DNA from: Malassezia furfur
Taxonomy: Eukaryota
Length of the DNA stretch: 49,898 bases
Strand: one strand, 5' to 3'
Assembly (NCBI GenBank): GCA_052055015.1
Contig: JBQJIT010000029.1
Shown here: in pieces, positions 12,155 through 47,008 of the stretch
Layout of the letters: each line of letters begins with the position of its first letter
Position numbering within the stretch: position 1 is the first letter of the stretch
The notes under the pieces: model-generated
The model's input: only the letters and a program-made list of their open reading frames with translations
Told to the model about the DNA's origin: nothing
Database searches by the model: none
Made by a program: the position numbers and the translations under genes

Positions 12155-13788
12155 CTATCTGCGCGTGTCGCCCAACACCGACACGATACTCGCGCGCACA
12201 ATGTCTGCGGCGCGCGCGACCTCGCCATCGTCGAGCTCCGAGGTGACTGCCACGCGCAGACTCGGCCGGTCGGTGTCCTCGGCAAGCGCCACATCGGGAC
12301 GCACACACCGCAGCCGGTGGTCGCGCACCAGCATCACACCCTGGTTCAGCGCGTTTTTGACAATGGCACGCAGAAGCTCCTCCTGCTCTTTGACGCTCAG
12401 GTCATGCGGCACGGTCTTGTGCGCATGGCGCACCTGCAGTGTATCCGACTTGGGCGCGAGCTTGCTCCGGATCTGCACGTGGATCAGCGCACTCTCGGGC
12501 GCACTCGGGATCTCAATGCTCCCGATGCGGTCGAGCACGCTGCGAATCTTGTGGATGTTCTTCTGCAGGTTCGTCATACGGTATGGTTGCGTGGTGAGCA
12601 ATTGCATCGCCGTCGTCGCACCGTTGGCCACCATCACGGGCATCGCTGCCGAGAAGATGAACGACAGGCCGTTAATGCGCTGGTGGCGCACGGCAAACGC
12701 CGTCGATGCACAAAAACCACCGCCGGCACCAAAGGCAATCGCCATGTTGCCAATGATAAAGTCGATGTCGTCGGGGTCCACGTTTTGGTACTCCGTCAGC
12801 CCACGGCCCGTCCTGCCCAGCGTCCCGATGCTGTACGATTCGTCCAAAAAGATGCGGAATTTGTATCGCTTGGCCAGCTCAACAACCTTGGGCAGGTCTG
12901 AAATCGCGCCATCGCTCTCAAACAGGCCCTCAGTTACAATGATGCGCCGACGCAGCGGCACCTGGTCTTTGAGCTGCATCTGCACGCGGTGCAACACTGC
13001 TTCGAGAGACGCCATGTTGTTATGCTCGTACCAGTAAATGGTGCTGCGCGACAGCTGCAGCGCACACTGGATCGCAAAGTTCACCCCAGAATCCGCCACA
13101 ATAATGTCACCACGCTTGCAAAACGCGGGGATGGCACCCGAAATCGTGCTGAAGCCCTGCGAGTAGATAATCGAATCTTCCTTGCGCAAAAACTCGGCGA
13201 TGCACTTTTCGAGCTTCATGTGCATATCACTCGTACCGTAGAAGCCAGGCGGCGAGCAGCTACCCACGCCGTATTCTCGCAAAATCGCCTGGGCCTGCGC
13301 CGTCATCTCGGGCGCATTGACCATACCCGTAAAGTTGAAACTCGCCAGGTTCAGCACGTCGCGTGGCTGCGTCCCGGAGAGCTCCGGGGCAGTGACCTTG
13401 ACACGCGGACCAGAGAGGCCCACCATCATGGGCACCTCGTCGAGGTCACGCTGCTCAGTGGCACTCAGCGGCTCACATAGCGGCTCGGGGTGGAATTCTT
13501 TTACCAGATAGTCGATGTCCTGTTGTGAGCCAAACCACCTACCTTATCTTCCAGCTGCACAAAATTGTTTGTGTTCTGGCCGCTGCGCGTGCGGTTTTGC
13601 AAGATGGTGCGCACCGCAAAGATGAGCAACGCCAGCTCCAGCAGCGACCGAATGGGGTCGTCCTGGTAGCTGCTGGCAATGTAGCGCATGATGATGTCCC
13701 GTCCTGGGATCATGCGGAGGAAATCCATTCCATATTGCGCAAGTGCTGAAACCGGGTCATGGAAGATCTGTGCATCCTGCTCAACCAT
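12155..13788 (-). CDS. LCB1: Serine palmitoyltransferase subunit 1; 2 exons
   Basis: SSYQDDPIRSLLEL, NLASFNF, YGVGSCSPPGFYGT and DESYSIG. A 23-nt intron at 13520-13542 (GTAGGT...CTCAC.AACAG) joins EDK|DIDYLVKEFHPEPL, giving 536 aa. Confidence 0.92.
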
Positions 13789-14039
13789 ATTGCTCGTCGT
13801 CGCGCGGGCCGTCAGAAGACTGGCGTCGGTGGGGGTGGAGACAAGACGTCGCGGATTTAATCGCCCCGTCGCTTGCGCGACTGCACGCCCGATCGCGCTG
13901 CCGTAAGCCGCAGGGGACGCGTACACCGACGCGTTTGCGTGTCCGAATGCGGCCTTCGCAACGGCACCCTTGGTTGGCGAGAAGGTCTGCATCTATCGTA
14001 TGTTGCGCCTCACACGCTCCTATGTAAACAAAGTGAAAC

Positions 14040-14643
14040 TCATTCCGTAGCTGGCGCGGACGACTCCTGACTCTCGTCGATCCAGCTTTGTTCCACGGTG
14101 AGCTTCACCCGGCGCACGTATTCCTTCATGTTTTCGCGGTATAGGGACGCAGCTTCTGCGTTTGCAGGGCTAGGTAAGCCAAGGAGACGGAGCACGTACC
14201 TGTTCGGGTTCGGATCATGAAGGAGACTCTGGATACTTGTGAGGATCGCCGCAACATCGTAGGTCGGGCTCCATCGATTTTGCAGGATATCGAGACACAG
14301 CTCCCCATTCGCATAGACATTCGGGTGGAACATCTTGCTCAGAAATTTCACAGTGGGGGGTTTGTTGGGGTACGATTCGTCAAAGGTCAGCAAGAGCTTG
14401 AATGTGCCATCTTCGAATGGTGTATCCGCTGCGATGTAAGTCACCCTGTGGTACAAAACATACCTGGACCAAAAATCACTGCATTCCAAACCAGCAGGTT
14501 ATCTGCGCAGGGCGCACCGGAAATGCCACCCGGCGGATCGGAAGAGAGGCGCTTGAAATCACGGATGAGCCTACGCTTAGATGGTGTCGACTGTTTCCGC
14601 GGTTAGTCTCCTGTCCCATTCCAGAAAAAAGACCACATACCAT
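14040..14643 (-). CDS. RAD6: Ubiquitin-conjugating enzyme E2 Rad6/Ubc2; 4 exons
   Basis: Spliced protein [16 protein letters not shown]...[18 protein letters not shown]...[25 protein letters not shown]...PN|SPAN. Introns at 14591-14640 (50 nt), 14429-14463 (35) and 14170-14199 (30, in frame). 162 aa. Confidence 0.95.
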
Positions 14644-15000: not shown

Positions 15001-15433
15001 TTAGGCCTTCATGGCAGGCTGGGGCTGGAAGCCGCTGTTGCGGTTCACGCGCCAGCCACAAATGCCACACGTCCAGATATGCTCGGAACGGAAAGGAATC
15101 TGCGTTAGTGCCACATCTTCAAGATCCACGTACCAGCGGGACCCAGCAGAGCTCAAACCACGTCCGACTCTTTGCCTCAACCACTTGTGCATTGTGGCAA
15201 CGGGGGCAGACGTAAGGCGTGCCGTCACCCTCTTGCGAGGTCTTGTCAGGGCACCCAAAGATAATAGGAATACAGAAAAAGAAGTCTCCCTGGAAATAGT
15301 CAGCAAACGTTCCTAGGGGCGCATGGACCAATGTCGTGTGCTCATATCGGATCGCATTATACCGGTTCCACTATCCCAGACCTGCTGGTCCAGAAAACAA
15401 CACATGCAGGCCACGCGCATAGACACATACCAT
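15001..15433 (-). CDS. Small fungal zinc-ribbon protein (85 aa); 3 exons
   Basis: M|GDFFFCIPIIFGC...CPRCHNAQV...WFELCWVPL|IPFRSEHIWTCGICGW has two CxxC pairs. Introns at 15290-15430 (141 nt, ATG|GTATGT...CTGAC...CAG) and 15100-15133 (34 nt). Confidence 0.75.
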
Positions 15434-16434: not shown

Positions 16435-16436
16435 TT

Positions 16437-17469
16437 CTACTTGATTTTGTAGAGGGCCTGGGCCGTTGTGCTATGCAATTGAGTATTAACCTCGGAGAGG
16501 ATGTCGGTGATCTAGGATGAGCAAATACACACACCTTCTGTACCTCATTAAAATCATCTGCTGGTCCTTGCAGCGCGTAACAGGTAGTGCGCCCAATCGC
16601 CGGCATAGTGCATAGCAACAGATCGACACTGGCATGCGTTGCCTCCTCGAGCGAGGGGTCCACGAGCCACTTTTGGTGCACCTTGCCTTGGAAGGGAAGG
16701 GAAGGAATAGCGGACTGTCGTCAGTGGTTCCACGTACGGCTGTGCTACCAGTAACAAGGCCATACATTTCGATTCCCGCCTCAGCTAGCGCTGCGCTCGC
16801 TGCCGTCGTGGCCAGTGCGATACAACCAGATACCGACGTGTCCATATCTAGTACAGTGATGTAGACGTCGATTGATGCTTTGGGAAGCAAATCCAGCCTG
16901 ATAGCAGGAAGTAAAGCTTGCTTCACTTGGGCAGCTGAGCCCGGCGACTCGACGTCCTTTCCCGGTTTAAAGCGATGGACGTCGCTGAACGGCGCCATGT
17001 TGAAAGCCACGTTGAGCTCCGCTTGGCCTGCATATTGGCGTCCACGCACTTGACGCGGACCATGCCTGCTGTGAGCAGAAGCGACTTACACAGCACATGC
17101 GAGCTTGGTGCGTCCGCATTCTAGCAATGCGCTCCCACTGGCGTTGGGGACCAGTCCGGTTTGGACATCTTCGGTAAGCAGGATTAACGTACACATGGGC
17201 CGAGCTTCCTTTTCACCGCGCCCATCACCGCGATCCGCAAAATCGCGCCGGGCAATGCGCGGGACCACAAGTTTGTCTTCTCCGACGGTCATGGAAGCCC
17301 GCTCGAGCTCGTTTGTGGCTTTCAGAGTCGGTTCAACAAGAAGCCGCTGCTCGTCAAGCGCCCAGACAGGATGATTCGTCGTAACTTCATCACTTGTATT
17401 GAGATTGAATAGAGGCAAAAACGTTTCGTCCGGGCCATTGACCCGTCGACGATCGTACAAGGCAGCCAT
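16437..17469 (-). CDS. MTR3: RNA exosome RNase PH-like subunit Mtr3; 5 exons
   Basis: N-terminal DRRRVNGP, then ASGSALLE..TKLACAVHGPR and LPKASIDVYITVL. Introns at 17169-17192 (24 nt), 17066-17089 (24), 16715-16737 (23) and 16512-16534 (23) give a 312-aa protein. Confidence 0.88.
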
Positions 17470-17581: not shown

Positions 17582-18686
17582 TTACAGAGCTAGCATAGTG
17601 GCAGCCAGCGTCGTCGCGGCCGCGACTCCGACCATGGCCGAGGAGATGCGGACGGTCGAGGCAGACGACTTTGCGCTCGATTCGTACACGTACAGGTTGC
17701 CGACCGACCAGTAGGCGTCCTGGAAACTCTGGCCTGCCTGGCCAACCTGGTTGGCACACGACTGGTATTTAGCCGGGCATTGCGACACCTGGTCGTATGC
17801 ATTGCCTGCCCAGTCACCACACAGCGTGATGTCAAACACAATCTTGTGTGCGTCAAACTGGCTCGAGCCGTCGGCGTTGTTCGAACACGAAAGTTTGCCG
17901 AAGTTGGCCGCGGGCGTACCCCAGTTGTCGGGGTTCACGGTCTTGCCCGGCTTAGAGATATCGCTGGGCATGTTTTGCGACTTGTCCCAGAACCACATGC
18001 GAATACCCTTGCCATCCGAGCTAAAGTCGCGCTGCATCGCAACAACGGCACCACCCTTGTTGTTCACGTTGGAGCCCCAAGTGGCGGTGTCCGTGTTGTT
18101 CATCTCAATACGACAGCCGCTGTTGTCGTTGGCTTCGGCGTTGCAGTTGGTGAAGACGGTCGTACCGGTCTGCTGAGAACCGTCAATGGAGCAGTCGCCC
18201 TGGACGTGCACGGCCGCCAAGTTTGCAGGGTACTGGTCGTTCACGTTTTCCATGATATCGATCTCGCCACCCGTAGGCCACTGCGACGTATTGGCTGTGA
18301 CTGTCCAGAACGCGGGCCACACGGCGCAACCCGTAGGAATGTGCGACACTTGCAAGCTGAGTCAGTGCTAAATCCACGTACACAATCACGGCGTCCTCAT
18401 AGTTGGACTGCGACTGGATGCGCACACTAGGGCGTCCCTCCGTGCGCGTTGTCTCGGTGTCTACACGCATGACAAAATTCTTGTTGTCATCCACGTAGGT
18501 AAGGTTGAGCGACTTAGCGGCGTCCTCGCTCTGGTAGGTCACGAGTCCATTGGTGGGATCCTTGTCCGTCCAGTAGTCGAACTTGTTCATGTAGTCTTCA
18601 CCAGAGTACGTGTCCTTCAAGTTCCACGAAGCTGCGCGGGCAAGCGCAACAGCGCTCACACCAGCGACGATCGCTCCCAACCGCAT
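17582..18686 (-). CDS. Secreted, probably GPI-anchored GH16 endo-1,3(4)-beta-glucanase/transglycosylase; 2 exons
   Basis: Signal peptide MRLGAIVAG..., DPTNGLVTY, WPAFWT, catalytic GEIDIME, ITLCGDWAG and a hydrophobic C-terminus. 25-nt intron at 18357-18381. Confidence 0.88.
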
Positions 18687-18832: not shown

Positions 18833-21346
18833 ATGCGTCGGAGCGCGATCGCTGCGGTGCTGAGCGACCGCACGAATGAGCCCAAAGATGGTCAGGCACG
18901 CCAGCTTGCGAGTGGAGGTGGCTTCGGTCCGCTGCTAGGCCAGAAGCCGTTCAAGCCACCGACCGCGGCGCGGCGTGAAGGTGCGCTGGCCTCGTTGCGG
19001 AAACGCCCGCGCGTCAACTACGCGGGCATGGGTGACGACGACGAAAAAAAAACCGAGTCGTACCGAGAGCTCGAGGAGCCGCGGAAGAAGAGCTCGCTTG
19101 AGGGCGTGTACAAAGGCATTGACGCCTCCGGCGTGTCGCTCAATGCCGACCGACGCAAATGGGCTGTGTATCAGCCAAAACCCGACGCGCTCGGGCGTCG
19201 GTTCCTGGTGCCCACAATGCACAACCAGCGTGGCGAGACAATCGAGACGCGTATGAGCTATGCGGCGCTTGGCGTGCGCCGTCCCGTCGAAGTTCCGCCG
19301 CGGCCCTTGCATGACCCCATGGGCGAGCATGCGATTGTACTGTTTGATCCGACCATTGACGACAAGGAGCTCGAACGCGAGAAGGAACGCTTGCACCTGG
19401 CACAGCAGGAGCACGAACGGCAGCTCGAGCGCGCGTCGCACGGGCCGCACAAGCGGCTCGCATCAATCCTGGGTATCGACAAGCCCAAAGTCCAGCTCGA
19501 GGAGAAGGTACCTGTCGTGATCGACCCGCGTCTCGCCAAAATTCTCCGGCCGCATCAGGTCGAAGGTGTCAAATTCTTGTACCGATGCACCACCGGCATG
19601 GTGCAAGAGAATGCGCACGGGTGTATCATGGCCGACGAAATGGGCCTCGGCAAGACGCTGCAGTGCATTACGCTCATGTGGACATTGCTGCGACAGTCGC
19701 CGCGGGCCGGCAAGAGCACAATCCAAAAGTGCATTATTGTGTGTCCCTCAAGTTTGGTGCGCAACTGGGCGAACGAACTGGGTATGTTTGTATACTTACG
19801 CAGTGAAATGGCTGGGCAACGCTGCTCCAGGAACACTCGCACTCGACGGCAAGCTGAGCCGCGAGCAGATGTTTGAGACGGTGCAGCGCTGGTGCGAGAG
19901 TAGTGGACGCTCCATCTCGCACCCGGTCATGATTGTATCCTACGAGACGCTGCGCAATCTCCAGGAGCTGCTGGGTAATACCGAAGTTGGCCTCCTGCTC
20001 TGCGACGAGGGCCACCGCTTGAAGAATGCCGACTCTCTCACATTCCAGTCGCTCGACATGATCAAGGTGAAGCGCCGCGTGATTCTGTCCGGCACACCGA
20101 TCCAGAACGACCTGTCGGAGTACTTTTCGCTGATTAACTTCGCCATTCCCGATGTGCTCGGTAGCCGCGCCGAATTCCGCAAGCAATTTGAGCTGCACAT
20201 TCTGCGCGGGCGTGACGCGGACGCCACAGAACAGCAGCAGCAGCTTGGCCGCGAAAAGCTGCAGGAGCTCTCGGGGCTCGTAAGCCAGTTTATTATCCGG
20301 CGCACCAACGATATCCTGTCCAAGTACCTCCCGGTGAAGTACGAGCATGTGGTGTTCTGCAACTTGTCGCCCTTCCAGCTGTCGCTATACGACCTGTTTG
20401 TCAAGTCGCCCGCGATCAAGAAACTGTTGCGCGGTGTGGGATCACAGCCGCTCAAAGCGATCGGCATTCTCAAGAAGCTGTGCAACCACCCTGATCTGCT
20501 CGACCTGCCCGACGACCTAGAGGGTAGCGAGGAGCTCTTCCCAGAGGATTACAAGCCGCGCGATCGCCGCCACGTCGCTGTGCAGCTGTCGGGCAAGATG
20601 GCAGTGCTCGAGCGTTTCCTTACCACCATCCGCACGACAACCGACGACAAGATTGTGTTGATCAGCAACTATACCCAAACCCTCGACCTGTTTGAGCGTC
20701 TGTGCCGCACGAAGCGCTGGGGCTGCTTCCGTCTGGATGGCACGATGAATATCGGCAAACGCCAGCGACTCGTCGACCGCTTCAACGACCCAACATCCCC
20801 CGAGTTTGTGTTCCTGCTCAGCTCCAAGGCCGGCGGCTGCGGTCTTAACCTGATCGGCGCGAACCGCCTCGTGCTTTTTGACCCGGACTGGAATCCGGCA
20901 TCCGACCAGCAGGCCCTGGCACGCGTGTGGCGCGACGGACAGAAGAAGTCGTGCTTTGTCTACCGCTTCATTGCGACGGGCTCCATTGAGGAGAAGATTC
21001 TGCAGCGCCAGTCACACAAGCAGTCGCTCTCGTCGTGCGTCGTTGATGAGGCTTTGGACGCCGAGCGCCACTTTTCTGGTGAAGACCTGCGCGCCTTGTT
21101 CCAGTTCAAGAGCCAGACGCCCTGCGACACGCACGACACCTACAAGTGCCGCCGGTGTCGCGATGGGAAACAGCTCACCCCGGCGCCCGCGATGCTCTAT
21201 GGCGATACCAGCACGTACGTACGCCCCACTCACCCAGATGGAACCATTATACGCACGAGCACCTTGGTGAGCTGCACGACGACCTTCTGCGCGCCGAAAT
21301 TGTGCACCCCGACGTGTCGTACGTCTTCCAGTATTGTAGCCACTAG
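18833..21346 (+). CDS. RAD54: SNF2-family DNA translocase Rad54; 3 exons
   Basis: PPRPLHDP, LRPHQVEG, ADEMGLGKT, DEGHRLKN, SGTPIQND and QALARVWRDGQ. Introns at 19782-19803 (22 nt) and 21215-21237 (23 nt) give 822 aa. Confidence 0.95.
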
Positions 21347-21398
21347 ATGAAATCGGGCCCGATCGCTTCACCCGCGCCGTCCGCACGCATCCCCAGGC

Positions 21399-22884
21399 AT
21401 GAGCGATGCGGAGCTGCCGATCGAGACGTTCCTCAAAGCGCAGCCGCGCACGGTACTGAATCGCTTGTACGAGAAGCCAGCGAGCTGTTTGGCCGTGTTC
21501 CGGTAGGTTTTGTTTGCCCTCTCACACAGTCTCTTGCCAATGGTCGCGCGTCAGATCATTCTCAACATACTATTCCTCGACGGGCCACTGACCATCGAAG
21601 ACTGTCTCAAGTTCTTCCAGAAGCGCAACACAACGTGCGTATTAGGCTAACGCAGCGAACACGAAATCCCGCTCGAGCGCATGGAAGGGTTGTCGATCGT
21701 CAAGCTCCGTGCCGACAAGCTCCATCTGAACGACATCTTTCGCAAGGGCATCGTCGGCGCATTGAATGGGAGGTACGCGTGCACGGCTCACGCAGCGGCG
21801 ACTATCACTCTTTCGGCACGCCGTGCAGTGGAAAAGAACACGAAAAGGTCGGCATCGAGTTCCTTGACTCGTACGCTAGGACCCAGTGGGAGACGATCCT
21901 CTACTTCATGGTCGGCAGCGAGCAGTCCACGCCGCCACGTAACACAGTACTTTTTCTCCTGCAGCGCGCTGGACTAATGCAACGCGATGCAAACGATGCA
22001 CGGCAACTCAACATTACGTCTGCAGGCTTCCAGTTTCTACTCCAGGATGTCAACTCACAGCTTTGGGCGCTTTTGTTACAATACCTGCGCATGGCCGAAG
22101 AGCGTAACATGGATCTGGTTGAGGTGCTCGCCTTCTTTTTTACAGTTGGTGGTCTTGAATTCGGACGTGCCTACGAGACCCGTGGCTTCTCGCTGACCCA
22201 AATGCAGACGCTCGAAGAGCTGAGCGATTACGGACTCGTGTATCGGACGAGTAAATCCGCCAAGTACTTCTTCCCGACGCGCTTGGCGGCAACGCTGACC
22301 TCGACGGCCACCTCAGCACTGTCTACCCTCGATGACCAGGAGGAGCAGGGCTACCTCATTCTTGAGACAAACTATCGCGTTTATGCTTATACCTGTACGC
22401 ACTGTCGTCTGACTCAGCCAACCTGCTACGCATCGCGATTCTCAACCTCTTTGTCACACTCAAGGAGCGCCTGCCCAATCTCGTAGTGGGGCAACTGACG
22501 CGCGAGAGCGTCAAGTCGGCACTGAACAAAGGCATCACCGCCAACCAAGTCATCGCCTACCTCACCCATCACGCCCATCCCCAAATGCACAAAAACGTAT
22601 GTCTTCCGCTCACGCAGGACCCGCTGCTCCCTGCGACTGTTTCGGACCAAATTCGGCTCTGGGAGCGCGAAAAGAATCGCGTTGCCACCTGCGTTGGTAC
22701 GCCGCCCACTGACCCAGGCAACCTGTATACCGAGTTCACCTCCATCCACGACTACGAGCAAGTGCGCGACTATGCCAAGAGCCTCGGGGTGCTGCAGTGG
22801 GAAAGCGAGGCAAAACGCATGCTCTTCGTTACCTCTGAGGGGCACGAAAGCGTGCGCGAGTTTATTCAACGACGGAGGGTATAA
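21399..22884 (+). CDS. TFB2: TFIIH core subunit Tfb2/p52; 7 exons
   Basis: LYEKPASCLAVFR, QWETILYFMV, ITSAGFQFLL, FFPTRLA, ILETNYRVYAYT and DQIRLWERE. Introns at 21503-21529, 21635-21655, 21773-21795, 22395-22417, 22597-22617 and 22697-22717 (27, 21, 23, 23, 21, 21 nt) give 449 aa. Confidence 0.92.
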
Positions 22885-24883: not shown

Positions 24884-25258
24884 GTTTGCGTGCTTTTAAT
24901 TCTTGCGCAAATAGCCTTCTCAACTAGCTCAGCATAGCCGCGTGCACTTTGGCTGCACGTAATAAGAGGAGCAATGCACGCGCGCCAAACTCCACGTGGT
25001 GCGCGAGACTCAGACGGCGCACTACTCCAGCACCGAGCACACAGGGCCGCGGCCGCGAGGGTATCACGTGAACAGCAACTGCGCTGCCCTGATCGGCGCT
25101 TGTTCTCTGCACTGCGCAATGAGGCGGTGGGGCGGGCGCTTACCTAATTTGGAGTTCAACCGAGCAGTGCCCGCAGGACCCGTAGACTGTCCGTGCGCTG
25201 GCGGGAGCAGGCTGCATATGGCCGTGTGCTACTTTCCTACAACCAACACCGCTACATC

Positions 25259-35204: not shown

Positions 35205-36570
35205 TTAGAAGCCCTTCTCCCTGGCGGTGAGGTTGAAGATGGTGTTCAGCTGGATGTTGCTGGTGCCCTCGTAGATGGCACCAATCTTGCTGTCGCGCCA
35301 GTACTTTTCGATACCCTGCTCGCGCGTGAAGCCCTGACCACCGGCCCACTCGATCGCCGAGCCGGCCGCACGCTGGGCAACCTGCGACGAGAAGAGCTTG
35401 GCCATGGCCGCCTCCTTGGTGAATGAGCGGCCCTCCTCCTTGCGGCGCGCCGCGTTGTACACCATGTTGCGTGCCGCCTCGATCTCGGTGGCAATCTGCG
35501 CAATCTGGAACTGCATGCCCTGGAACTTGGCGATCGGCTTGCCGAACTGCTCACGCTCAAACGTGTATTGCATGCCGCGGTCAAACGCACCCTGGGCCAG
35601 ACCGACCATCTGCGCGCCGATACCCACACGGCCCTCGTTGAGGATCTCGATGGCAATCTTGTAGCCCTTGCCCTCCTCGCCGATGAGGTTCTCAACGGGC
35701 ACCTTGACCTCGTCAAAGTTGACAGTGCAGGTGCTGCTAGCACGGATACCGAGCTTGCGCTCCTTCTTGGCGATCTCGACGCCCATGTCCTTAGTCACAG
35801 CAAAGGCCGAGATACCCTTGTAGCCCTTCGAGGCATCACCCTGCGCAAACACGATGAAGAACTCGGCCTCAGCGCTGTTGGTGATCCACATCTTCGAGCC
35901 GTTGATGATGTAGTGCTTGCCGTCGTCCGACTTCTTCACCGAGGTCTTCATGGCGAAGGCATCAGAGCCCGAGGCGGGCTCCGACAGGCAGAAGCTACCG
36001 AGCATGCCCGACGAGAGCTGGGGCATGTACTTTTGCTTGAGCTCATCGTTGGCGTACTTGCGCAGCACGGTGTTGACCAGCGTCTGAGGTCAGTGGGGGG
36101 CAAATACGTACGTTGTGCACATCACACAGCACCGACACAGACGGGTCGATCTTGGCGAGCTCCTCGATCACAATGATCGCCGACATGAAGCTGCAGCCCG
36201 CACCGCCGAGCTCGGGGTCGGTCTCGATAGCCATGAGGCCCTGCTCGAAGAGGCCCTTGATGATCGCGGGGTCCATCTTCTCGGCCTCATCCATCGCCTC
36301 AACGCGCGGCTTCACCTCGTTCTCGGCAAAGCGACGCACCGTCTCACGGAGCATCTCCTCCTCCTCCGTGAACTTCGCAAGCGAGTTCACGCCAAAGGGG
36401 CTCTCGTACTCCTCGGCGCGGTTCGCCGACGACGTGAAGGTGCGCGACGCGGAACGCGCAGCACCAGCCTGCGGCACACGCAGCACCGTGTGCACGGCAG
36501 GAACAGAGCGCGACGTGCGCAGCGCAGCGCGCACAGCGGGGGAGTGGCGAAGAACAGAACGCATCGACAT
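35205..36570 (-). CDS. ACADSB: Mitochondrial short/branched-chain acyl-CoA dehydrogenase; 2 exons
   Basis: Presequence, DVHN|TLVN, FCLSEPASGSDAF, GSKMWITN, LNEGRVGI and IYEGTSNIQ. 28-nt intron at 36084-36111. Confidence 0.92.
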
Positions 36571-39760: not shown

Positions 39761-39776
39761 CTTACCTGCCACCGCC

Positions 39777-40877: not shown

Positions 40878-42833
40878 ATGGCATCCGTTAACCCGCTTGC
40901 CGGTGTCCCTCCCGGCAGTAGCGCAGCCATGGGCCGCCCGGGATCGATTACCCCCTCGCAACCACTAGCTTCCCACGGACCGCCGCACTCAACGTCCCCT
41001 CCTCCTGGCGCGCATCCGATCGCGGGAGCCGTTGCCCCAGGAGCGGGGCAGGCGATTTGGTCCGCTCGGTTGCTGGATCTGCTCAATCTCGTGCGTCACG
41101 AGTTCGATGTGATTGGGAACGATGCTGTGCACTTCAAATCGCAGCGCGATGAGATGGAGCACCGGAGTACGTTAAGCTCATGTCCGCCCTAACGCCAGTC
41201 GCCCAGCAGTTCAACGAAGTGACCCTGATGCAGGACCACGTGTATGAGCTGGAGAAGCGTCACTGTGACATCGTTGCGCAGTACGAAGAGGAAATAAAGC
41301 GCCTCCGTGGCCTGCTCGACGCGCGCGGCGTCCCGCATGCTCCTGACGCGGCTTCGCTCGCGCCCAGCGCGGCTCCGTCACGCGCTGCGGGCGGCAACTC
41401 GTCGCGTGCGTCGTCTCCGACCCGTACGCGTGCAGAGCGCCTTCCGCCGCCGGACGTTGCTGCGCACCAAGCGCCGCGCGGTGCACCAACCGCCGAAGCG
41501 TCGTGGCCGCCGAACAAGCGTGCGAAAACGAACGGCACGGTGCCAGGCGCACAGGCCAGCGAGTCGCGTGCCCCGCGTATGAAGCGCGAGGAGCGCGAGC
41601 CCAAGCGTCCGAGTACGTTTGCGCCCTCTGACCCAGACCCCCCCGCGGCGCCGGAGTCTTCGGCAAAGGAGGACGAGCCGCGTACGGAGGCCGCGTCAGA
41701 GGCCAGCAAGGCGGCCGCCCCGTCTGAGCCGGTGCCTGCGCCCGAAAACGCCACTGAGGAGGCCTCCGAGCAGGGCCAGGCACTCAAGAAGGAGGGGAGC
41801 GACTGGGTCGCTCTATACAACCCCAAGGCCCAGCCAGCGCTCGACGTGAACCTCGTGCACACGCTGATGCACGACAGTGTGGTGTGCTGTGTCCGTTTCT
41901 CGCCCGACGGCAAGTTCTTGGCCACGGGGTGCAACCGCGCAGCCAACATCTACGACAGCAAGACGGGCGCCAAGACGTGTGTACTACAGGATGCGTCATC
42001 AGACAGCGAGGGTGACTTGTACATCCGCAGCGTGTGCTTCAGCCCCGATGGCAAGTATCTCGCAACGGGCGCCGAGGACCGTCAGATCCGCATCTGGGAC
42101 ATTGCGGAGAAAAAGATCAAAACGACGCTCACCGGCCACAAGCAGGAGATCTACTCGTTGGAGTACTCGCAGGATGGCCGCATTCTCGCCAGTGGCTCGG
42201 GAGACAAGACGGTGCGCATCTGGGACATGGATTCGGGTACGCCGATTCATGTGCTCTACACGAGCCCCGGCCTAAACTACGGCCCCGGCGTCACAGCGAT
42301 CGCTCTGAGCCCCGACGGGCGCCTCGTGGCCGCCGGCGCGCTCGACACGTTTGTGCGCGTTTGGGACACCAAGACGGGCATGCTGCGCTGCCGCCTCAAG
42401 GGCCACAAGGACAGCATTTACAGCGTGGCCTTTATGCCCGATGGGCAGACGCTCGTGAGCGGCAGCCTCGACAAGACCCTCAAGCTGTGGGACTTGACCT
42501 GCATCACACAGTCGCTTGACTCGATGGATGACGAGATCTCCAATCCATCCATGTGCATCTCCACGTTTACGGGGCACAAGGACTACGTGCTCTCGGTGTC
42601 GTGCTCGCCGCAAGGCCGCTGGATTGCCTCGGGCTCCAAGGACCGCAGCGTGCAGTTCTGGGACCCGCGCTCGGGCCAGTCGCAGCTTGTACTGCAAGGC
42701 CACAAGAACTCGGTGATTGCCATCAACCTCAGCCAGACGGGCAACCTGCTTGCAACGGGCAGTGGGGATTTCAAGTACGTCACCCAAGACTCACCACAGC
42801 GCACGAATCTGGTCGTACGAAAATACGTCCTAG
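40878..42833 (+). CDS. TUP1: General transcriptional corepressor Tup1; 3 exons
   Basis: Tup_N (RLLDLLNLVRHEFD...YEEEIKRL) and WD40 repeats (HDSVVCCVRFS, DLYIRSVCFSPDGKYLATGAED). Introns at 41167-41198 (32 nt) and 42775-42799 (25 nt); the latter restores GSGDFNARIWSY*. Confidence 0.94.
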
Positions 42834-42862
42834 CTATGTCGTATAGTGAAGTGGAAGATGCA

Positions 42863-43676
42863 TTAATTGCGTCGTGGGTACGGAGGTGTGCCATCGGGAC
42901 TCGCAGACCGGCGCCGTGCCCCACGGTAGTCGTCATCGCGGTCATTGCGACGGTCATGATAGCGGTCACGGCGGTCATAACGGTCACGCTCGTCATATTG
43001 GTCGCGCTCGTCGGAGGCATCGGTGCGTCGCTGTGCACGCGAACCCTGAGTCAGAGTGGGTACGTACCCATCCAGCATCGCGCTCGCGGCGCGTCACGTT
43101 GCCGCGTTTATCGACGAAACTGTCAGGTGGTCGCTGCGCGTCACGCCGGCGATCGGCCGCGATAGGTGACCGCCCGCGGTCAAAGCGCGCAGTGGGAGGC
43201 GCATGCGCATCGTGCGGTGCTGTTCCCGCAGCGCCACGGCGCCGCACCTCGCTCATGACATGGTCGGTCTCGGCGCGGGCTTGCTGCATCTCGCGCTTCT
43301 TTTGCTCCACAAACGCACGGGGAATGCCCGCGACCGAGTCTTGGGCAGAGAGGAGTAGCGACCATAGTTCGGCCATGAACGGACGCGCGCGTTTTTCGAG
43401 GAATCCTGTAAGCGAGATCTGCATCTTGCGTGGGTCTGGAAATTGCTCGCTCTCGAGGTGGTCGCTGACGAATTCGACGAGCACCTCATCTTCGAATCCG
43501 AGGATTGCCTCGACTTTTTCGGCAATCCAAGGGCGCATGACCTGCAGGTTGACCTTGCTCGTATCTACGCGCTCGTCAAAGTTGCTGGGGTATTTCGTCG
43601 ACTTGAGTAGCGCATCCTCTTTGTTTTTGAAGCGGACGTCGTCGCCGCCGGCCACCCCCCGGAAGCCGTCCACCAT
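42863..43676 (-). CDS. PWI-domain splicing coactivator (SRm160/SRRM1-like); 2 exons
   Basis: GFRG...DVRFKNKE, KVNLQVMRPWI, GFEDEV, QISLTGFL, ELWSLLLSAQ and GIP. 22-nt intron at 43046-43067. Short RD-rich tail. Confidence 0.85.
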
Positions 43677-43736
43677 GATAGGTGGAGGACCACGTGTGCC
43701 GGGCTCCGCTCGCACGCTCGTCACTTTTTTCTACGG

Positions 43737-44975
43737 ATGCCAGGGGTGAACTCGATCAAGCTGCTCACGGGCAACAGCCACCCGGAGCTCGCACAGCTGG
43801 TGTCGAAGCGGTGCGTTGTGCGCATACTCACACAGACTCGGCGTCCCGCTCACCGAATGTATCTGTCGCAAGTTTGCCGACCAGTCGATCGACGTCCGTA
43901 TCGGGTCGTCGGTGCGGGACCAGGATGTGTTTGTGATTCAGTCGGGTCATTCGCCGTATGTCGACCCGAATGACAGCCTAATGGAGCTGCTGATCATCCT
44001 GTCGGCATGCAAGACGGCGTCGGCGCGGCGCATCACCGCTGTCATCCCGTCGTTCCCTTACTCGCGCCAGAACAATAAGGACAAGAGCCGTGCGCCCATC
44101 ACCGCCAAGATGGTCGCCAACATGATCACCACGGCAGGCGCCGAGCATGTCATCACCGTCGATCTGCATGCGAGTCAGATCCAGGGGTTCTTTGACGTTC
44201 CCGTCGACAACCTGACCTCCGAGCCGTCCATCGCGCGCTGGATCCGGAGCAATGTGGACGACTGGCGCGACGCCATCATCGTCTCGCCAGATGCCGGCGG
44301 TGCGAAGCGGTATGTATGCCCGACTGACACAGCGCAACCTCGCTCGCCGACTTCCTCGGCATCGACTTTGCCCTGATTAACCGCAACCGCCGGCGCGAAC
44401 ATGCGCGGCGTCACCATCCTCAGCACCACCACCACCCCGACATGGCACAGCTTGCTGTGTCTGAGGTTGCCAACGGCGTGCTGTCTATGAGCGACAGCGG
44501 CGAGTGGTTCATTAACGAGGAGGACGGCCGCCGGCTGCGGAGCGGTGGCCACCGCCGTTCGCAGGCGGGCCCAGAGAGCGAACACGGTGTGTCGGACGAC
44601 GAAAACGACGCCAAGATGGAGGTACTGGTTGGTGACGTCACCGGCAAAACGGCCATCCTCGTCGACGACATGGTCGACACGGGCCGCACGCTTGCCCTTG
44701 CGGCCAAGACACTTGAGGCCGCGGGTGTCAAGCGCGTGTTTGCCGCCGTGTCGCACGGTCTGCTGTCCGGTCATGCGGTGGACCTGATCAAGCGGCTGAA
44801 TATGGAGAAGTTTGCGGTGACCAACACCATCGCCAACCACGACAAGGCCGCCGCAAGCGGGAGCATGATCCAGATCGTTGACATGTCCGCCGTTATCGCC
44901 GAGACGATTCGGCGCTCGCACCATGGCGAGAGCATCTCGACCATGTTCCGCCAGGATGCCGAAATGATGTTTTAG
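43737..44975 (+). CDS. PRS1: Ribose-phosphate pyrophosphokinase with an internal non-homologous insertion (Prs1/Prs5-type); 3 exons
   Basis: [36 protein letters not shown] and [12 protein letters not shown]. Introns at 43811-43835 (25 nt) and 44310-44332 (23 nt). The paralogue number is uncertain. Confidence 0.88.
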
Positions 44976-44982
44976 ACATAGA

Positions 44983-47008
44983 CTACATGGCACTGAAGAA
45001 CGCTGCATCGAACGCTTCGGGCTCCAGCTTGCCCTGCTTCATCTTCTTCATGGCGCGCTCCTCGGCCGCCCAGTCCTCCTCGTCGCTCGTGTCCGACGGC
45101 GAAGCAGGCGTCGGCGCACTCGCCTGCTCCTGTAGCCACCGCCGCTTGCGCTCCTTCTTCTCGCGGCGCACATCGCGCGCCTCCTTGCGCCGCTTTTGCT
45201 CGCTCCATGCACCCTCCTGCTTCTTGGCGGGCGCCGCACGCGGCGCGGGAGCCGGCGCCGCATCCTCGCGCGCGAGTCCCGCGACGCGCTGTGCCTCGCG
45301 CCGATGGTCGGCGTACGCAAACGTGCGGAGCTGGGTTAGTGACGTGCACGTACGTCAGGCATCGTATCCTCAAACAGCGACGCGTCGTCGTCGTTCCGCT
45401 CGCGCCACCGCGCGACTTCGGGCATGCGCGGCAGGTTGAGCAGCGCAAACTGGCACGCAAGCCGGTCGAGCGGCAGGTCGGCTAGACGGAAGATGTAGTT
45501 CACCTCGTGCTTCGAGTAGGCACGCACGTAGCTCACAAACGCACGCATTCCCAGTTCGTACAGCGCGCGGTCACTGCGCACCGTCTCGCGCAGCGATCGC
45601 TCGAGCGCTCGGGCATCGTCATCCGTTGCCGGCTCGTCGCCGTACGCGAGCGTTGGCAGGACATAACGCATCGGGCGCAGTGGCACCTGCTTGACCTGCA
45701 GGTATTCTGTGTGAGCGGTGCATACGCACCCACATAGCCCTCCTCGCGGCCCTCGTGCAGCAGCACAATGGCTCGTCCTGTCCGCCCAGCACGCGCCGTG
45801 CGCCCACACCGGTGCGAAAACACCTTGGGATCGTTTGGCGGGTCGTATTGGATCACAACGTCAACGTCGGGCAAGTCGAGACCGCGCGCTGCCACATCGG
45901 TGCACAGCAGCACGGTGCACTGCGCATCTGACGCGCCGGTTCGGTCGGTATCGCGTGCATCGGTGTGGGCGTGCGCAAACGCCTGGAAGGTCGCGTGCCG
46001 TCGCTTGGTCGTTTGCTTGCCGTGCAGCGAAAAGAACTGCAAGCCCTTCGTGTCATGAGGATGCATCTTCGTGTGTTGGCTGAGCAGCGAAAACACATAG
46101 TTCACCTGCGCACACGTTGCAAAGTACACGATGGCCTTGTGCGCGCCATCCTGTGCCTCGCGCCGAAGCAGGCGCAGCAGCTGCGCCAGTTTGTTCTCAG
46201 GGCGCGACACATGGTAAAAGTTGTGCAGCGTCGCGGGCATGCGGATATCCTTGCGCGTCGCCGAGCCCTTGGCCTTGGTCTCGACCTTGACCACCACACG
46301 CACCGGGTTGCGGAGGCCGACGCGGACGAGCTCGGTGAGTGCTTCGGTCATCGTCGCGCTAAATAGCCCCGTGCGTCGCTGCTTGGGCAGATACGCAAGC
46401 AGTGCGCGAATCGGTTCAACAAATCCCAGGTCCAGCAGGCGGTCAGCCTCGTCCATGACGAGTACGTCGAGCTCGCTGGTGCGCACGCCCGGCTTCTTGA
46501 GCAGCTCCTCCATGCGTCCAGGCGTGCCGACGAGGATGTCGGGGCCGTTCTCGCGGAACAGGCGGTAGTCCTCGGCGGGGGACACCTTCAGGCCGCCCAC
46601 CACGAGCTGTACAGGGCCCACGCGCCCGTGCGGTGCGGTTTCGTCCGGCTGCGCATCCAAAAAGTGTTGCAGCACACCGCATGTCTGCTCTGCAAGCTCA
46701 CGCGTGGGACACACGATGACCGCACCGAGATCGTGCCTCTTCAATGCAACTTCACGCCGCCTCAAAATTTCGAGAATGGGTATCACGAACGCGAGCGTCT
46801 TGCCCGAGCCCGTCACGGCCTCGGCGACCACGTCCTTGTGTGAAAGGAAGAGCGGGATGGACGCGGCCTGCACGGGCGTCACCTGTGTATATTCCATAGA
46901 CGCCACGACGTCGAGTCTGTGTGAGTTGCGCACGTACATCCACTCGCTCAGCGGCGGCCGCACGGTGGACCAGGCGCCGGCCGCCATCGCCGTGTCGCTT
47001 TGCGCCAT
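44983..47008 (-). CDS. SPB4: DEAD-box rRNA helicase Spb4/DDX55; 4 exons
   Basis: TPVQ, AVTGSGKT, PTRELA, DEAD, SAT, HRCGRTARAG and AFVSYVRAYSKH. Introns at 46917-46937 (21 nt), 45707-45729 (23) and 45331-45353 (23); 652 aa. Confidence 0.93.

What the first reader, a model, noticed from the sequence alone, without database searches (positions are those of the whole stretch)
13520..46937. Ultra-short spliceosomal introns across the window: 37 introns, median 23 nt, none below 21 nt
Seen in sequence: restoring conserved proteins requires 37 introns, with lengths 21 (x8), 22 (x3), 23 (x9), 24 (x3), 25 (x4), 26, 27, 28, 30, 32, 34, 35 (x2), 50 and 141 nt. The 21-mers share one layout: 6-nt donor + 6-nt spacer + CTNAY branch + NYAG (e.g. 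GTATGT CTTCCG CTCAC GCAG). They have no polypyrimidine tract, and the branch A at position 16 implies a lariat loop of about 16 nt. Established: fungal introns are usually several tens of nt or longer, Malassezia introns are known to be short, and sizes near 20-25 nt are typical of ciliates, chlorarachniophyte nucleomorphs and microsporidia. Inference: U1 and U2 snRNPs could hardly bind such an intron at once, so this fungus may have a remodelled spliceosome with a steric minimum of 21 nt. I cannot tell whether this is already described for this species.
Basis: partly seen in the sequence, partly recalled or inferred. Interest (0 to 1): 0.9.

Follow-up and report, generated by a model that had tools for sequence, protein, structure and literature searches.

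The report
Known tiny introns of Malassezia yeast
The window comes from a Malassezia skin yeast whose genes are interrupted by real, ordinary-type spliceosomal introns only 21-35 bases long; this is striking, but very short introns are already on record for this genus.

Summary
A motif scan and gene models gave 38 candidate introns. The median is 23 nt and none is below 21.

- The composite signal GTRNGY-N6-20-CTNAY-N1-2-YAG occurs 37 times, against 2.27 +/- 1.64 in 200 dinucleotide shuffles.
- 21 of the 38 junctions have independent comparative proof.
- 5 more have partial comparative support, and 9 rest on reading frame and coding potential only.
- 3 cannot be verified: 39398, 37158 and 25112.
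- One 21-nt GC-AG intron in PMU1 was missed. It leaves a 17-nt micro-exon.

All eight RAD54 and TFB2 introns sit at sites where related Malassezia-like contigs carry a longer intron or exactly none.

The best protein hits are Malassezia, at 84-93% identity. Published annotations already report a mean of 30 bp for M. sympodialis (99% RNA-seq supported) and a median of 30 bp for M. restricta. The phenomenon is therefore known.

No genome or RNA data are held for this window.

In the library I searched I did not find a description of the fixed 5-6 nt gap from branch site to 3' end, or of the 21-nt floor.

The parts
13520..13542 (-). 23-nt intron, LCB1 (serine palmitoyltransferase 1)
   Evidence: The last residue of exon 1 maps to residue 113 of yeast Lcb1 chain 8c80_B, and the first residue of exon 2 maps to residue 114. 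Retention gives a stop after 13 codons.
14591..14640 (-). 50-nt intron directly after the ATG of RAD6/UBC2
   Evidence: ATG|GTATGT. In the frame of exon 2 a stop lies 4 codons upstream, with no ATG after it. UQ_con begins at residue 7 of exon 2.
14429..14463 (-). 35-nt intron, RAD6
   Evidence: UQ_con profile positions 1-37 end at the last residue of exon 2, and positions 39-114 begin at the first residue of exon 3. Retention gives a stop at codon 7.
14170..14199 (-). 30-nt in-frame intron, RAD6
   Evidence: Read through, it appears as an exact 10-residue gap against solved Rad6 chains 7w75_A and 1ayz_A.
15290..15430 (-). 141-nt intron directly after the ATG of a small zinc-ribbon-like gene
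   Evidence: ATG|GTATGT. A stop, and no ATG, lies between that ATG and exon 2 in the same frame. No Rfam match and no unusual fold. Frame logic only.
15100..15133 (-). 34-nt intron, same small gene
   Evidence: Retention gives a stop at codon 4. Splicing joins the CPRC and CGIC halves. The spliced frame has the best codon score.
17069..17089 (-). 21-nt intron, exosome RNase PH-type subunit
   Evidence: RNase_PH profile position 31 falls at the end of exon 1 and position 34 at residue 3 of exon 2. An in-frame TAA lies in the donor.
16715..16737 (-). 23-nt intron, same gene
   Evidence: Restores the frame. The spliced frame has the best codon score of the three. No comparative check.
16512..16534 (-). 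23-nt intron, same gene
   Evidence: Restores the frame. Codon score 24.9 against -48.4 and -37.6 in the other two frames. No comparative check.
18357..18381 (-). 25-nt intron, secreted glucanase-like gene
   Evidence: Restores the frame. The spliced frame has the best codon score. No Pfam hit for either exon.
19782..19803 (+). 22-nt intron, RAD54
   Evidence: Exactly absent in three related contigs, L001, L005 and L006. The SNF2 profile is contiguous: position 70 at the exon end, position 91 at residue 20 of the next exon.
21215..21237 (+). 23-nt intron, RAD54
   Evidence: L001 has a 25-nt intron at the same site. L005 and L006 lack it exactly.
21503..21529 (+). 27-nt intron 1, TFB2
   Evidence: In-frame stop. 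The junction is gapless against 12 homologs. Relatives carry 31, 41 and 43 nt here.
21635..21655 (+). 21-nt intron 2, TFB2
   Evidence: In-frame stop. Gapless junction. Two relatives carry 24 and 36 nt, and L006 has no intron here.
21773..21795 (+). 23-nt intron 3, TFB2
   Evidence: Gapless junction. L005 carries 27 nt, and L001 and L006 have no intron here.
22395..22417 (+). 23-nt intron 4, TFB2
   Evidence: Tfb2 profile 303|307 is contiguous. L001 carries 24 nt, and L005 and L006 have no intron here.
22597..22617 (+). 21-nt in-frame, stop-free intron 5, TFB2
   Evidence: Gapless inside the conserved HAHPQM..N|DPLLP segment in 12 homologs. Two relatives carry 24 and 30 nt, and L006 has no intron here.
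22697..22717 (+). 21-nt in-frame, stop-free intron 6, TFB2
   Evidence: Tfb2_C profile 15|20 is contiguous once the residues in between are counted. Gapless junction. Relatives carry 25, 41 and 28 nt.
23858..23892 (-). 35-nt intron, galactosyltransferase-family gene
   Evidence: Retention gives a stop at codon 9. Codon scores are 38.7 upstream and 26.5 downstream in the spliced frame. No comparative check.
25112..25143 (-). 32-nt intron-like motif; doubtful, possibly a 5'UTR intron of the gene downstream on the minus strand
   Evidence: The motif is present, but there is no coding signal on either side: -28.7 and -18.4. The 'protein' it would make looks like noise.
27656..27680 (+). 25-nt intron, P4-type lipid flippase
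   Evidence: Coordinates are contiguous in 4 solved chains: 9dzv_A 105|107-108, 7ky5_A 262|264, 7drx_A 224|226, 6lcp_A 141|143.
35082..35102 (-). 21-nt intron 1, PMU1-like phosphomutase
   Evidence: In-frame stop at codon 6. The N-terminal likeness to P0123 runs across the junction.
34889..34909 (-). 21-nt in-frame, stop-free intron 2, PMU1
   Evidence: The spliced HN|LAEEK aligns without a gap to HNVAEAK and HNVAESK in homologs.
34872..34888 (-). 17-nt micro-exon between two 21-nt introns
   Evidence: Encodes the conserved (N)LAEEK. Removing the whole 59 nt as one intron would shift the frame that homology confirms (59 mod 3 = 2).
34851..34871 (-).
   Evidence: Read through, it gives a 7-residue insertion that is absent from all 3 homologs. 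The sequence has the exact 6+6+CTAAC+GCAG layout with a GC donor. It is the only free-standing GC-AG motif hit in the window.
34435..34460 (-). 26-nt intron, PMU1
   Evidence: In-frame stop. The junction is colinear with homologs.
34325..34346 (-). 22-nt intron, PMU1
   Evidence: Restores the frame. The junction is gapless against homologs.
34220..34240 (-). 21-nt intron, PMU1
   Evidence: The junction is gapless against P0122 and P0123.
36084..36111 (-). 28-nt intron, acyl-CoA dehydrogenase
   Evidence: The Acyl-CoA_dh_N profile reaches 86 of 113 at the last residue of exon 1. The middle domain starts at residue 30 of exon 2.
39398..39421 (-). 24-nt in-frame, stop-free candidate, INCENP-like gene (unverified)
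   Evidence: Strong motif, GTACGT...CTGAT.CCAG. It lies in low-complexity protein, and no comparative check was possible.
37158..37181 (-). 24-nt in-frame, stop-free candidate, INCENP-like gene (unverified, weaker)
   Evidence: GTGCGC donor, and the branch A lies only 3 nt from the 3' end. It does not match the composite pattern.
41167..41198 (+). 32-nt intron, TUP1
   Evidence: Tup_N profile 33|36 is contiguous. The junction is gapless in 5 Malassezia orthologs. In-frame stop.
41613..41636 (+). 24-nt in-frame, stop-free intron, TUP1 (probable)
   Evidence: Read-through proteins of four relatives differ here (STF, STS, SMF, GTW ... DP, NP, NT, DV). Yet all fit the codon pattern GTAYGT...CTRAC.YAG. 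This is inferred from residues; the DNA was not seen.
42775..42799 (+). 25-nt intron, TUP1
   Evidence: The spliced C-terminus GDFNARIWSY equals that of 5 named Malassezia records. ORF-only calls from metagenomes run on into noise.
43046..43067 (-). 22-nt intron, PWI-domain gene
   Evidence: Restores the frame. The spliced frame has the best codon score, 18.0 against 6.6 and -90. No comparative check.
43811..43835 (+). 25-nt intron, PRPP synthetase
   Evidence: Residue 1 of exon 2 maps to residue 23 of human PRPS1, and exon 1 supplies 24 residues plus a split codon. Restores the frame.
44310..44332 (+). 23-nt intron, PRPP synthetase
   Evidence: Exon 2 ends at PRPS1 residue 176. Exon 3 carries residues 200-314 after a lineage-specific insert. 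Restores the frame.
46917..46937 (-). 21-nt in-frame, stop-free intron, SPB4 helicase
   Evidence: Read through, it is an exact 7-residue gap against solved chain 8i9z_CW.
45707..45729 (-). 23-nt intron, SPB4
   Evidence: It separates the helicase core from the SPB4-specific CTE domain, which lies in another frame. The spliced frame has the best codon score.
45331..45353 (-). 23-nt intron, SPB4
   Evidence: It separates the CTE_SPB4 and CTT_SPB4 domains. Retention gives a stop at codon 5.
13898..13924 (-). possible further 27-nt in-frame intron in LCB1 exon 1 (unverified)
   Evidence: Matches the composite motif on the sense strand. It lies upstream of the part that aligns to solved Lcb1, so it cannot be judged.

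Best explanation
These are ordinary major-type (U2-dependent) GT-AG spliceosomal introns in the nuclear genome of a Malassezia yeast. Its closest named relatives are M. brasiliensis and M. psittaci. The introns have shrunk almost to their bare signals.

Each intron has three parts:
- a strong 5' splice site (GTAYGT and close variants);
- a spacer of at least 6 nt with no compositional bias;
- a fused 3' module, CTNAY-N(1-2)-YAG, which puts the presumed branch adenosine only 5-6 nt from the 3' splice site.

Length varies almost only in the spacer. That gives a floor of 6+6+5+4 = 21 nt.

Shown: the segments exist, are strongly enriched, and lie on the sense strand of genes. Removing them restores conserved proteins. 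At orthologous sites relatives carry introns of other lengths or none.

Inferred: the introns are recognised by intron definition from signal strength alone, without a polypyrimidine tract. The adenosine of CTNAY is taken to be the branch point. The floor would reflect the room needed for the 5' splice site helix and the branch helix in one short loop.

Ultra-short introns are already documented for the genus.
For: - Motif: 37 hits against 2.27 +/- 1.64 expected, and 32 of the 37 are model introns.
- TFB2: all 6 junctions are gapless against 12 homologs from four fungal groups.
- Orthologous DNA: at all 8 sites examined (TFB2 x6, RAD54 x2), related contigs show GT..AG segments of other lengths or exact absence.
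- In-frame segments: reading them through gives exact gaps of 10 and 7 residues against solved Rad6 and Spb4.
- Contiguous coordinates across junctions: LCB1 113|114, the flippase in 4 chains, and Pfam profiles UQ_con, RNase_PH, SNF2, Tfb2, Tfb2_C and Tup_N.
- Coding potential: the spliced frame scores best in 35 of 38.
- Architecture: the branch A lies 5 nt from the 3' end in 23 of 38 and 6 nt in 9 of 38. Donors are GTACGT 15, GTATGT 7 and GTGCGT 5 of 38. The shortest spacer is 6 nt, and there is no pyrimidine tract.
- Host: best hits are Malassezia at 84-93% identity.
- Literature: PMC5389616 Table 2 (5350 introns, mean 30 bp, 99% with RNA-seq); PMC9241646 Table 1 (M. restricta, average 37.2, median 30); PMC6473144 (gene finder run with min_intron_len 15); PMC7426719 ('very short introns').
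Against: - No RNA evidence could be obtained for this window. Splicing itself, the branch point and any retention are inferred.
- The donor, branch and acceptor motifs were search criteria. Their 38 of 38 occurrence is therefore partly by construction.
- Three candidates have no support beyond the motif: 39398, 37158 and 25112. Nine rest only on frame and codon statistics.
- One 21-mer (17069) departs from the common layout.
- The published median for M. restricta (30) is higher than the 23 seen here. This species may lie at the short end of the genus, and that was not found in print.
Confidence: 0.92

Rival explanations
1. One reading: introns this short cannot hold U1 and U2 snRNPs together. 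On this view the fungus has a remodelled spliceosome (lost or truncated early factors, altered branching factors), and its geometry sets a hard minimum of 21 nt.
For: - Pile-up at the minimum: 8 introns of 21 nt, or 9 with the GC-AG one, and none of 15-20 nt although such lengths were allowed.
- Only 3 nt lie between the branch motif and the AG, and there is no pyrimidine tract. That leaves no room for a tract-binding factor at the usual place (inference).
- At every shared site the window's intron is the shortest: 27/21/23/23/21/21 against 24-43 in relatives. This suggests pressure against a floor.
- In Stentor, regions of the branching factors Yju2, Cwc25 and Isy1 are not conserved (PMC9505925, passages read).
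Against: - Nothing about the spliceosome could be examined. There is no genome and no snRNA in the window.
- Stentor splices 15-16-nt introns with all snRNAs and most proteins conserved (PMC9505925, abstract). Shortness alone therefore does not require a different machine, and 21 nt is not a universal limit.
- Two splicing-related genes in the window look intact: the TGS1 cap methyltransferase and a PWI-domain protein.
- The sample is 38 introns.
Confidence: 0.2
2. A minority of the listed segments are not introns but coding sequence or chance motif matches. The candidates are the in-frame, stop-free 24-mers in the INCENP-like gene (39398, 37158) and the 32-mer at 25112. Alternatively they are optional introns whose retention adds 7-10 residues.
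For: - About 2.3 chance motif hits are expected in the window, and 3 orphan hits were seen.
- 37158 has a weak GTGCGC donor, and its branch A lies 3 nt from the end.
- 25112 has no coding signal on either side.
- 9 of 14 introns whose length is a multiple of three carry no in-frame stop within the intron (my count from its per-intron list; the line printed by the script says 5 with a stop). Retention of these would not truncate the protein.
- Public records of relatives do read such segments as protein (P0125, P0129).
Against: - Every in-frame, stop-free case that could be tested proved absent from homologs: 14170, 22597, 22697, 34889 and 46917.
- 41613 keeps the splice-signal codon pattern in four relatives.
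- 39398 has the full consensus.
Confidence: 0.4
3. The interruptions are assembly errors, pseudogene frameshifts or programmed frameshifts, not introns.
For: None found. The only point in its favour is that no RNA was examined.
Against: - All segments carry GT..AG with the same internal signals.
- 14 of 38 have a length that is a multiple of three, so they are not frameshifts at all.
- Independent assemblies of relatives show introns at the same sites with other lengths.
- Named protein records of five Malassezia species agree with the spliced TUP1 C-terminus.
Confidence: 0.01

Closest known systems
Annotated nuclear introns of Malassezia sympodialis and M. restricta (PMC5389616 Table 2; PMC9241646 Table 1; PMC6473144)
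   Same: Same genus and the same kind of intron. The mean is 30 bp in M. sympodialis (5350 introns, 99% with RNA-seq) against 28.5 here. Gene finders there had to be run with a minimum intron length of 15-20. Related metagenome contigs show the same GTAYGT...CTNAY-N-YAG layout.
   Different: The median here is 23, against 30 reported for M. restricta. At 7 shared orthologous sites the window's intron is the shortest. I did not find the 21-nt floor, or the fixed 5-6 nt between branch site and 3' end, stated in those papers. I read passages and tables, not whole texts. Figure S8 of PMC5389616 is a picture that I could not read.
Tiny introns of ciliates: Paramecium, average 25 nt (PMC8997360, abstract); Stentor, 15-16 nt (PMC9505925)
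   Same: The length range is similar. They are canonical GT-AG introns removed by a largely conserved spliceosome, and they raise the same steric question.
   Different: The lineage is unrelated and AT-rich. Stentor goes well below 21 nt. Here the genome is GC-rich (62%), with a yeast-like strict branch motif placed next to the 3' splice site.
Short introns of Encephalitozoon microsporidia (named in PMC13644364, Introduction; details recalled)
   Same: Fungal-lineage introns of about 23-30 nt in a compacted genome.
   Different: Microsporidia keep only a few dozen introns and have a much reduced spliceosome (recalled). Malassezia keeps thousands (5350 in M. sympodialis).
Fused branch-site/3' splice-site motif of Trichomonas and Giardia introns (recalled; PMC12316389 seen only in a search listing)
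   Same: The branch motif lies a fixed, very short distance from the AG, so the two form one 3' module.
   Different: Those are protists with very few introns, and their introns are usually longer overall. Here the distance is even shorter (5-6 nt).

Membership tests
Major (U2-type) GT-AG spliceosomal introns | GT (rarely GC) at the 5' end and AG at the 3' end | tested here: met
   38 of 38 are GT-AG, and one further intron is GC-AG. GT and AG were search criteria. The enrichment of 37 against 2.27 hits shows the pattern is not chance.
Major (U2-type) GT-AG spliceosomal introns | Extended 5' splice site able to pair with U1 and U6 (GTRNGY) | tested here: met
   Donors are GTACGT 15, GTATGT 7, GTGCGT 5, GTACGC 4, GTAGGT 3 and others 4, of 38. 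The snRNAs themselves were not seen.
Major (U2-type) GT-AG spliceosomal introns | Branch-site motif with an adenosine upstream of the 3' splice site | tested here: inconclusive
   CTNAY is present in 38 of 38, with the A 5-6 nt from the end in 32 of 38. However, it was a search criterion, and the real branch point needs lariat mapping.
Major (U2-type) GT-AG spliceosomal introns | Removal restores a conserved, colinear protein | tested here: met
   21 of 38 junctions have independent homolog or profile contiguity. The spliced frame has the best coding score in 35 of 38.
Major (U2-type) GT-AG spliceosomal introns | At orthologous sites relatives show presence with other lengths, or exact absence | tested here: met
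   8 of 8 sites examined, TFB2 x6 and RAD54 x2.
Major (U2-type) GT-AG spliceosomal introns | Absent from mature mRNA; lariat formed | not testable with these tools
Minor (U12-type) introns | 5' splice site RTATCCTT and a TCCTTAAC-like branch site | tested here: not met
   None of the 38 donors has this form. The U12 motif is recalled.
Malassezia ultra-short intron population | Host is a Malassezia species | tested here: met
   TFB2 exon: 84% to M. psittaci, 80-81% to M. pachydermatis and M. sympodialis. TUP1: 93% to M. brasiliensis.
Malassezia ultra-short intron population | Intron length centred near 20-40 nt | tested here: met
   Mean 28.5 and median 23 for 38 introns. Published values are a mean of 30 bp (PMC5389616 Table 2) and a median of 30 (PMC9241646 Table 1).
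Reduced or remodelled spliceosome (as in microsporidia) | Loss or truncation of snRNAs or core splicing proteins | not testable with these tools
   No whole genome is held, and there is no snRNA in the window.

The most novel reading that the evidence does not exclude
In the M. furfur-group lineage of this window, introns have been driven to a hard floor of 21 nt, with the branch point fixed 5 nt from the 3' splice site. That would mean early 3' splice-site recognition works without a polypyrimidine-tract reader. It would also mean the branch helix and the 5' splice-site helix are held by a linker of only 4-5 nt. This implies adapted early factors or branching factors, as conjectured for Stentor. 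Since Malassezia can be cultured and transformed (PMC7426719), it would be a handy yeast model for finding the true minimum size of a spliceosomal intron.
Probability: 0.25. Interest if true: 0.6.

Novelty: already known. Interest (0 to 1): 0.3.

Why it matters
1. Annotation. In-frame, stop-free 21-30-nt introns are invisible to ORF finders and to gene finders with default minimum intron lengths. Public records of related species show the result. RAD54 and TFB2 are fused into one protein in four records. Tiny introns are read as protein in TUP1 of M. yamatoensis and M. brasiliensis.

2. Mechanism. A 21-nt intron with a 16-nt lariat loop and a 5-nt tail, in a yeast that can be grown and transformed, offers a practical way to test how small an intron the spliceosome can take. 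It also tests whether a polypyrimidine tract is dispensable.

Neither point is new in kind. The genus is already known for very short introns.

Tried and rejected
- Whole genome, for a survey of snRNAs and splicing factors: none is held.
The count and the shuffles were done in a script instead.
- Longest-ORF path building and exhaustive path enumeration (timed out) were poor guides in this GC-rich DNA. A dynamic programme with codon scores replaced them.
- Nested shorter alternatives of 16-20 nt inside real introns (21219, 43818, 44314, 45707-45725, 46917-46933, 39398-39417, 37158-37173) give shorter or broken ORFs and were not chosen.
- A single 59-nt intron at 34851-34909 is rejected, because it would shift the frame that homologs confirm.
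- A snoRNA or structured RNA as the reason for the 141-nt intron: no Rfam match even at E <= 1, and a fold z-score of 0.22. No Rfam family or tRNA anywhere in the window.
- A PDB search for the PMU1 exon found nothing. Three database homologs were used instead.
- Earlier notes of this scan hold nothing on this genome or its relatives.
- Literature on a Malassezia-specific spliceosome or intron architecture: searches found annotation statistics only.

Full report
**What the window is.** The 49.9-kb window is GC-rich (53-69% per 2 kb) and carries ordinary fungal nuclear genes. These include beta'-COP, TAF5, LCB1, RAD6, TGS1, an exosome RNase PH subunit, RAD54, TFB2, a P4 flippase, a PMU1-like phosphomutase, an acyl-CoA dehydrogenase, an INCENP-like protein, TUP1, a PWI-domain protein, a PRPP synthetase, SPB4 and a GRAM/VASt protein. 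The best database hits are Malassezia. The largest TFB2 exon is 84% identical to M. psittaci and 80-81% to M. pachydermatis and M. sympodialis. TUP1 is 93% identical to M. brasiliensis. Everything below therefore rests on sequence and comparison, not on RNA.

**Checking the observation.** I scanned both strands for GT[AG]NG[TCA] ... YTNAY ... YAG segments of 15-60 nt. Gene models built from the hits gave 38 candidate introns in 17 genes between 13520 and 46937. Their lengths are 21x8, 22x3, 23x9, 24x3, 25x4, 26, 27, 28, 30, 32x2, 34, 35x2, 50 and 141. The median is 23 and the mean 28.5.

The composite pattern GTRNGY-N6-20-CTNAY-N1-2-YAG occurs 37 times, against 2.27 +/- 1.64 (maximum 7) in 200 dinucleotide-preserving shuffles. 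Of the 37 hits, 32 are model introns and 2 are nested variants of model introns. One is the antisense of an intron, and 2 are orphans. That number of orphans is about what chance predicts.

**Are they introns?** The strongest evidence comes from related DNA. One metagenome scan with the TFB2 exon returned eight Malassezia-like loci at 80-81% protein identity.
- **TFB2:** the exons align at about 77% column identity, and the six segments behave as introns. The window has 27/21/23/23/21/21 nt, L001 has 31/24/none/24/24/25, L005 has 41/36/27/none/30/41, and L006 has 43/none/none/none/none/28. Each begins with GT and ends with AG, and the interior is not conserved.
- **RAD54:** the 22-nt segment at 19782 is exactly absent in all three relatives. 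The 23-nt segment at 21215 is matched by a 25-nt intron in L001 and is exactly absent in L005 and L006. The relatives also carry two introns that the window lacks.
- **TFB2 protein:** the spliced protein (449 aa) aligns without a gap at any of the six junctions to 12 homologs from Malassezia, Ustilaginales, Mucoromycota, Taphrinomycotina and Agaricomycetes.

**In-frame, stop-free segments.** These are the ones that frame logic cannot judge, so I read them through and compared them with homologs.
- The 30-nt RAD6 segment is an exact 10-residue gap against solved Rad6.
- The 21-nt SPB4 segment is an exact 7-residue gap against chain 8i9z_CW.
- PMU1 aligns gaplessly to three homologs at the junctions at 34889, 34435, 34325 and 34220.

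**Frame-shifting introns.** Here exon-by-exon searches give contiguous coordinates across the junction:

| Gene | Evidence |
|---|---|
| RAD6 | UQ_con 37\|39 |
| Exosome subunit | RNase_PH 31\|34 |
| RAD54 | SNF2 position 70, then 91 at residue 20 |
| TFB2 | Tfb2 303\|307 and Tfb2_C 15\|20 |
| TUP1 | Tup_N 33\|36 |
| LCB1 | residues 113\|114 of yeast Lcb1 |
| Flippase | contiguous in four solved chains |

The TUP1 C-terminus after the 25-nt intron (GDFNARIWSY) equals that of five named Malassezia records. An independent codon log-odds score puts the spliced frame first of the three downstream frames in 35 of 38 cases. The exceptions are two very short terminal exons and 25112.

**Tally of 38 candidates.**
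- 21 have independent comparative proof at the junction.
- 5 have partial comparative support. 45707 and 45331 separate consecutive SPB4-specific domains that lie in different frames. 43811 and 44310 fit PRPS1 coordinates. 41613 keeps a GTAYGT...CTRAC.YAG codon pattern in the read-through proteins of four relatives although the residues differ.
- 9 rest on frame, stop codons and coding potential.
- 3 are unverifiable. 39398 and 37158 lie in the low-complexity INCENP-like protein. 25112 lies where nothing looks coding.

For the two introns that follow the ATG directly (50 nt in RAD6, 141 nt in a small zinc-ribbon gene), the exon frame has a stop and no alternative ATG upstream.

In PMU1 the model kept a 7-residue insertion that is absent from all three homologs. 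The DNA there is a 21-nt segment with the standard layout but a GC donor (34851-34871). It leaves a 17-nt micro-exon (34872-34888) between two 21-nt introns. A single 59-nt intron is excluded by the frame. A further 27-nt motif in LCB1 exon 1 (13898-13924) may be another in-frame intron, but it cannot be judged.

**Anatomy.**
- **Donors:** GTACGT 15, GTATGT 7, GTGCGT 5, GTACGC 4, GTAGGT 3 and others 4, of 38.
- **Branch motifs:** CTCAC 10, CTGAC 10, CTAAC 8, CTTAC 5, CTCAT 4 and CTGAT 1.
- **Branch to 3' end:** the presumed branch A lies 5 nt from the 3' end in 23 introns, 6 nt in 9, and 3, 8, 10 or 12 nt in the other 6.
- **Spacer:** in the 36 introns of up to 35 nt, the spacer between donor and branch motif ranges from 6 to 19 nt and is never below 6. 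It is 55% pyrimidine, and the median longest pyrimidine run is 3.
- **Phase and length:** phases are even (12/13/13), and lengths that are multiples of three are not depleted (14 of 38).

The intron is therefore a 6-nt donor, a free spacer of at least 6 nt, and a fused 9-10-nt branch/acceptor module. This explains the floor at 21 nt. Seven of eight 21-mers, and the GC-AG one, have exactly the 6+6+5+4 layout. 17069 reaches 21 nt with another split. Relatives show the same layout at slightly greater lengths, so the architecture is genus-wide and the window's lineage lies at the short end.

**How it most likely works.** The introns are recognised across the intron from strong, near-invariant signals. 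The 5' site pairs with U1 and later with U6, and CTNAY pairs with U2. The AG that follows 5-6 nt later is the first one available. These steps are inferred from the established model of U2-type splicing. Only the signals, and their effect on the reading frame, are shown here.

With three nucleotides between branch motif and AG there is no place for a polypyrimidine-tract reader. A-16 leaves a linker of only 4-5 nt between the two helices. Both points follow from the sequence, but their consequences are inference.

The steric argument is a fair question, but it is not testable here. It is also not forced by the data. Stentor removes 15-16-nt introns with all snRNAs present and most proteins conserved. 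The authors conjecture only local changes in branching factors (PMC9505925, abstract and passages). I put the idea of a truly remodelled machine at about 0.2.

**Comparison with what is known.**
- Malassezia genes are described as 'containing very short introns' (PMC7426719, passage).
- The curated M. sympodialis annotation has 5350 introns with a mean of 30 bp, 99% supported by RNA-seq (PMC5389616, Table 2; its size-distribution Figure S8 is a picture that I could not read).
- M. restricta has 2150 introns, average 37.2 and median 30, predicted with a minimum intron length of 15 (PMC9241646 Table 1; PMC6473144, passage).

The mean of 28.5 found here matches these values, so the phenomenon is already known. 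Searches found no paper that describes the fixed branch-to-AG distance, the 21-nt floor, or the Malassezia spliceosome. A 2026 paper on introns under 30 bp lists ciliates, microsporidia and dicyemids as the exceptions and does not mention Malassezia (PMC13644364, Introduction passage). The library covers open-access papers only, so this is no proof of absence.

**Verdict.** The novelty is low. The practical lesson is for annotation, because public records of relatives fuse RAD54 with TFB2 and read tiny in-frame introns as protein.

Noticed in passing
It leaves a 17-nt micro-exon (34872-34888) between two 21-nt introns.
   Followed up: yes
window 21346-21399; proteins P0001, P0003, P0004, P0006: The RAD54 stop and the TFB2 start codon are only 52 nt apart. 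Four public Malassezia protein records (M. psittaci, M. pachydermatis, M. sympodialis, M. cuniculi) fuse RAD54 and TFB2 into one protein. In the M. psittaci record (P0001) the join lies at RAD54 residue 787, the donor of the last RAD54 intron.
   Followed up: partly
proteins P0125 and P0129 (TUP1 orthologs), aligned to window 41613-41636 and 42775-42799: The named records of M. brasiliensis and M. yamatoensis read tiny in-frame introns as protein (PSTFAPPD; KYVQDKLTIS). These are annotation errors of the kind such introns invite.
   Followed up: partly
window 13898-13924 (minus strand): A 27-nt in-frame, stop-free segment in LCB1 exon 1 matches the full intron motif on the sense strand. It may be a further intron. 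The region is not conserved enough to tell.
   Followed up: partly
window 25112-25143 (minus strand): A 32-nt intron-like motif lies upstream of the galactosyltransferase-family gene, where neither side looks coding. It could be a 5'UTR intron or chance.
   Followed up: partly
window 14641-14643 and 15431-15433 (minus strand): In RAD6 and in a small zinc-ribbon gene the first coding exon is the ATG alone, followed at once by GTATGT. These two first introns are the longest in the window (50 and 141 nt). The 141-nt one holds no known RNA family or notable fold.
   Followed up: yes
L001, L005, L006 against window 18833-22884: Introns come and go between close relatives. Of 10 sites seen in RAD54 and TFB2, only 2 are occupied in all four sequences. 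Two introns exist only in relatives: 24 nt in L001 and 43 nt in L005. At 7 shared sites the window's intron is the shortest.
   Followed up: partly
window 1-13500 and 47000-49898: The first 13.5 kb (beta'-COP, an F-box/LRR protein, a TPR protein, an aldo-keto reductase, TAF5) and the last gene (GRAM/VASt) show no introns. The 33 kb in between has about 1.1 per kb.
   Followed up: no
window 15565-16434 (minus strand) and 42863-43676 (minus strand): Two splicing-related genes lie in the window and look intact. One is a TGS1-type snRNA cap methyltransferase (Methyltransf_15, E 6e-38). The other is a PWI-domain protein with an Arg/Asp-rich tail.
   Followed up: no
protein P0124 and others from metagenome sources: ORF-only gene calls on metagenome contigs include a 100% identical TUP1 fragment. 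It runs through the 24-nt and 25-nt introns into out-of-frame noise. Such database proteins for this lineage are unreliable at their ends.
   Followed up: no
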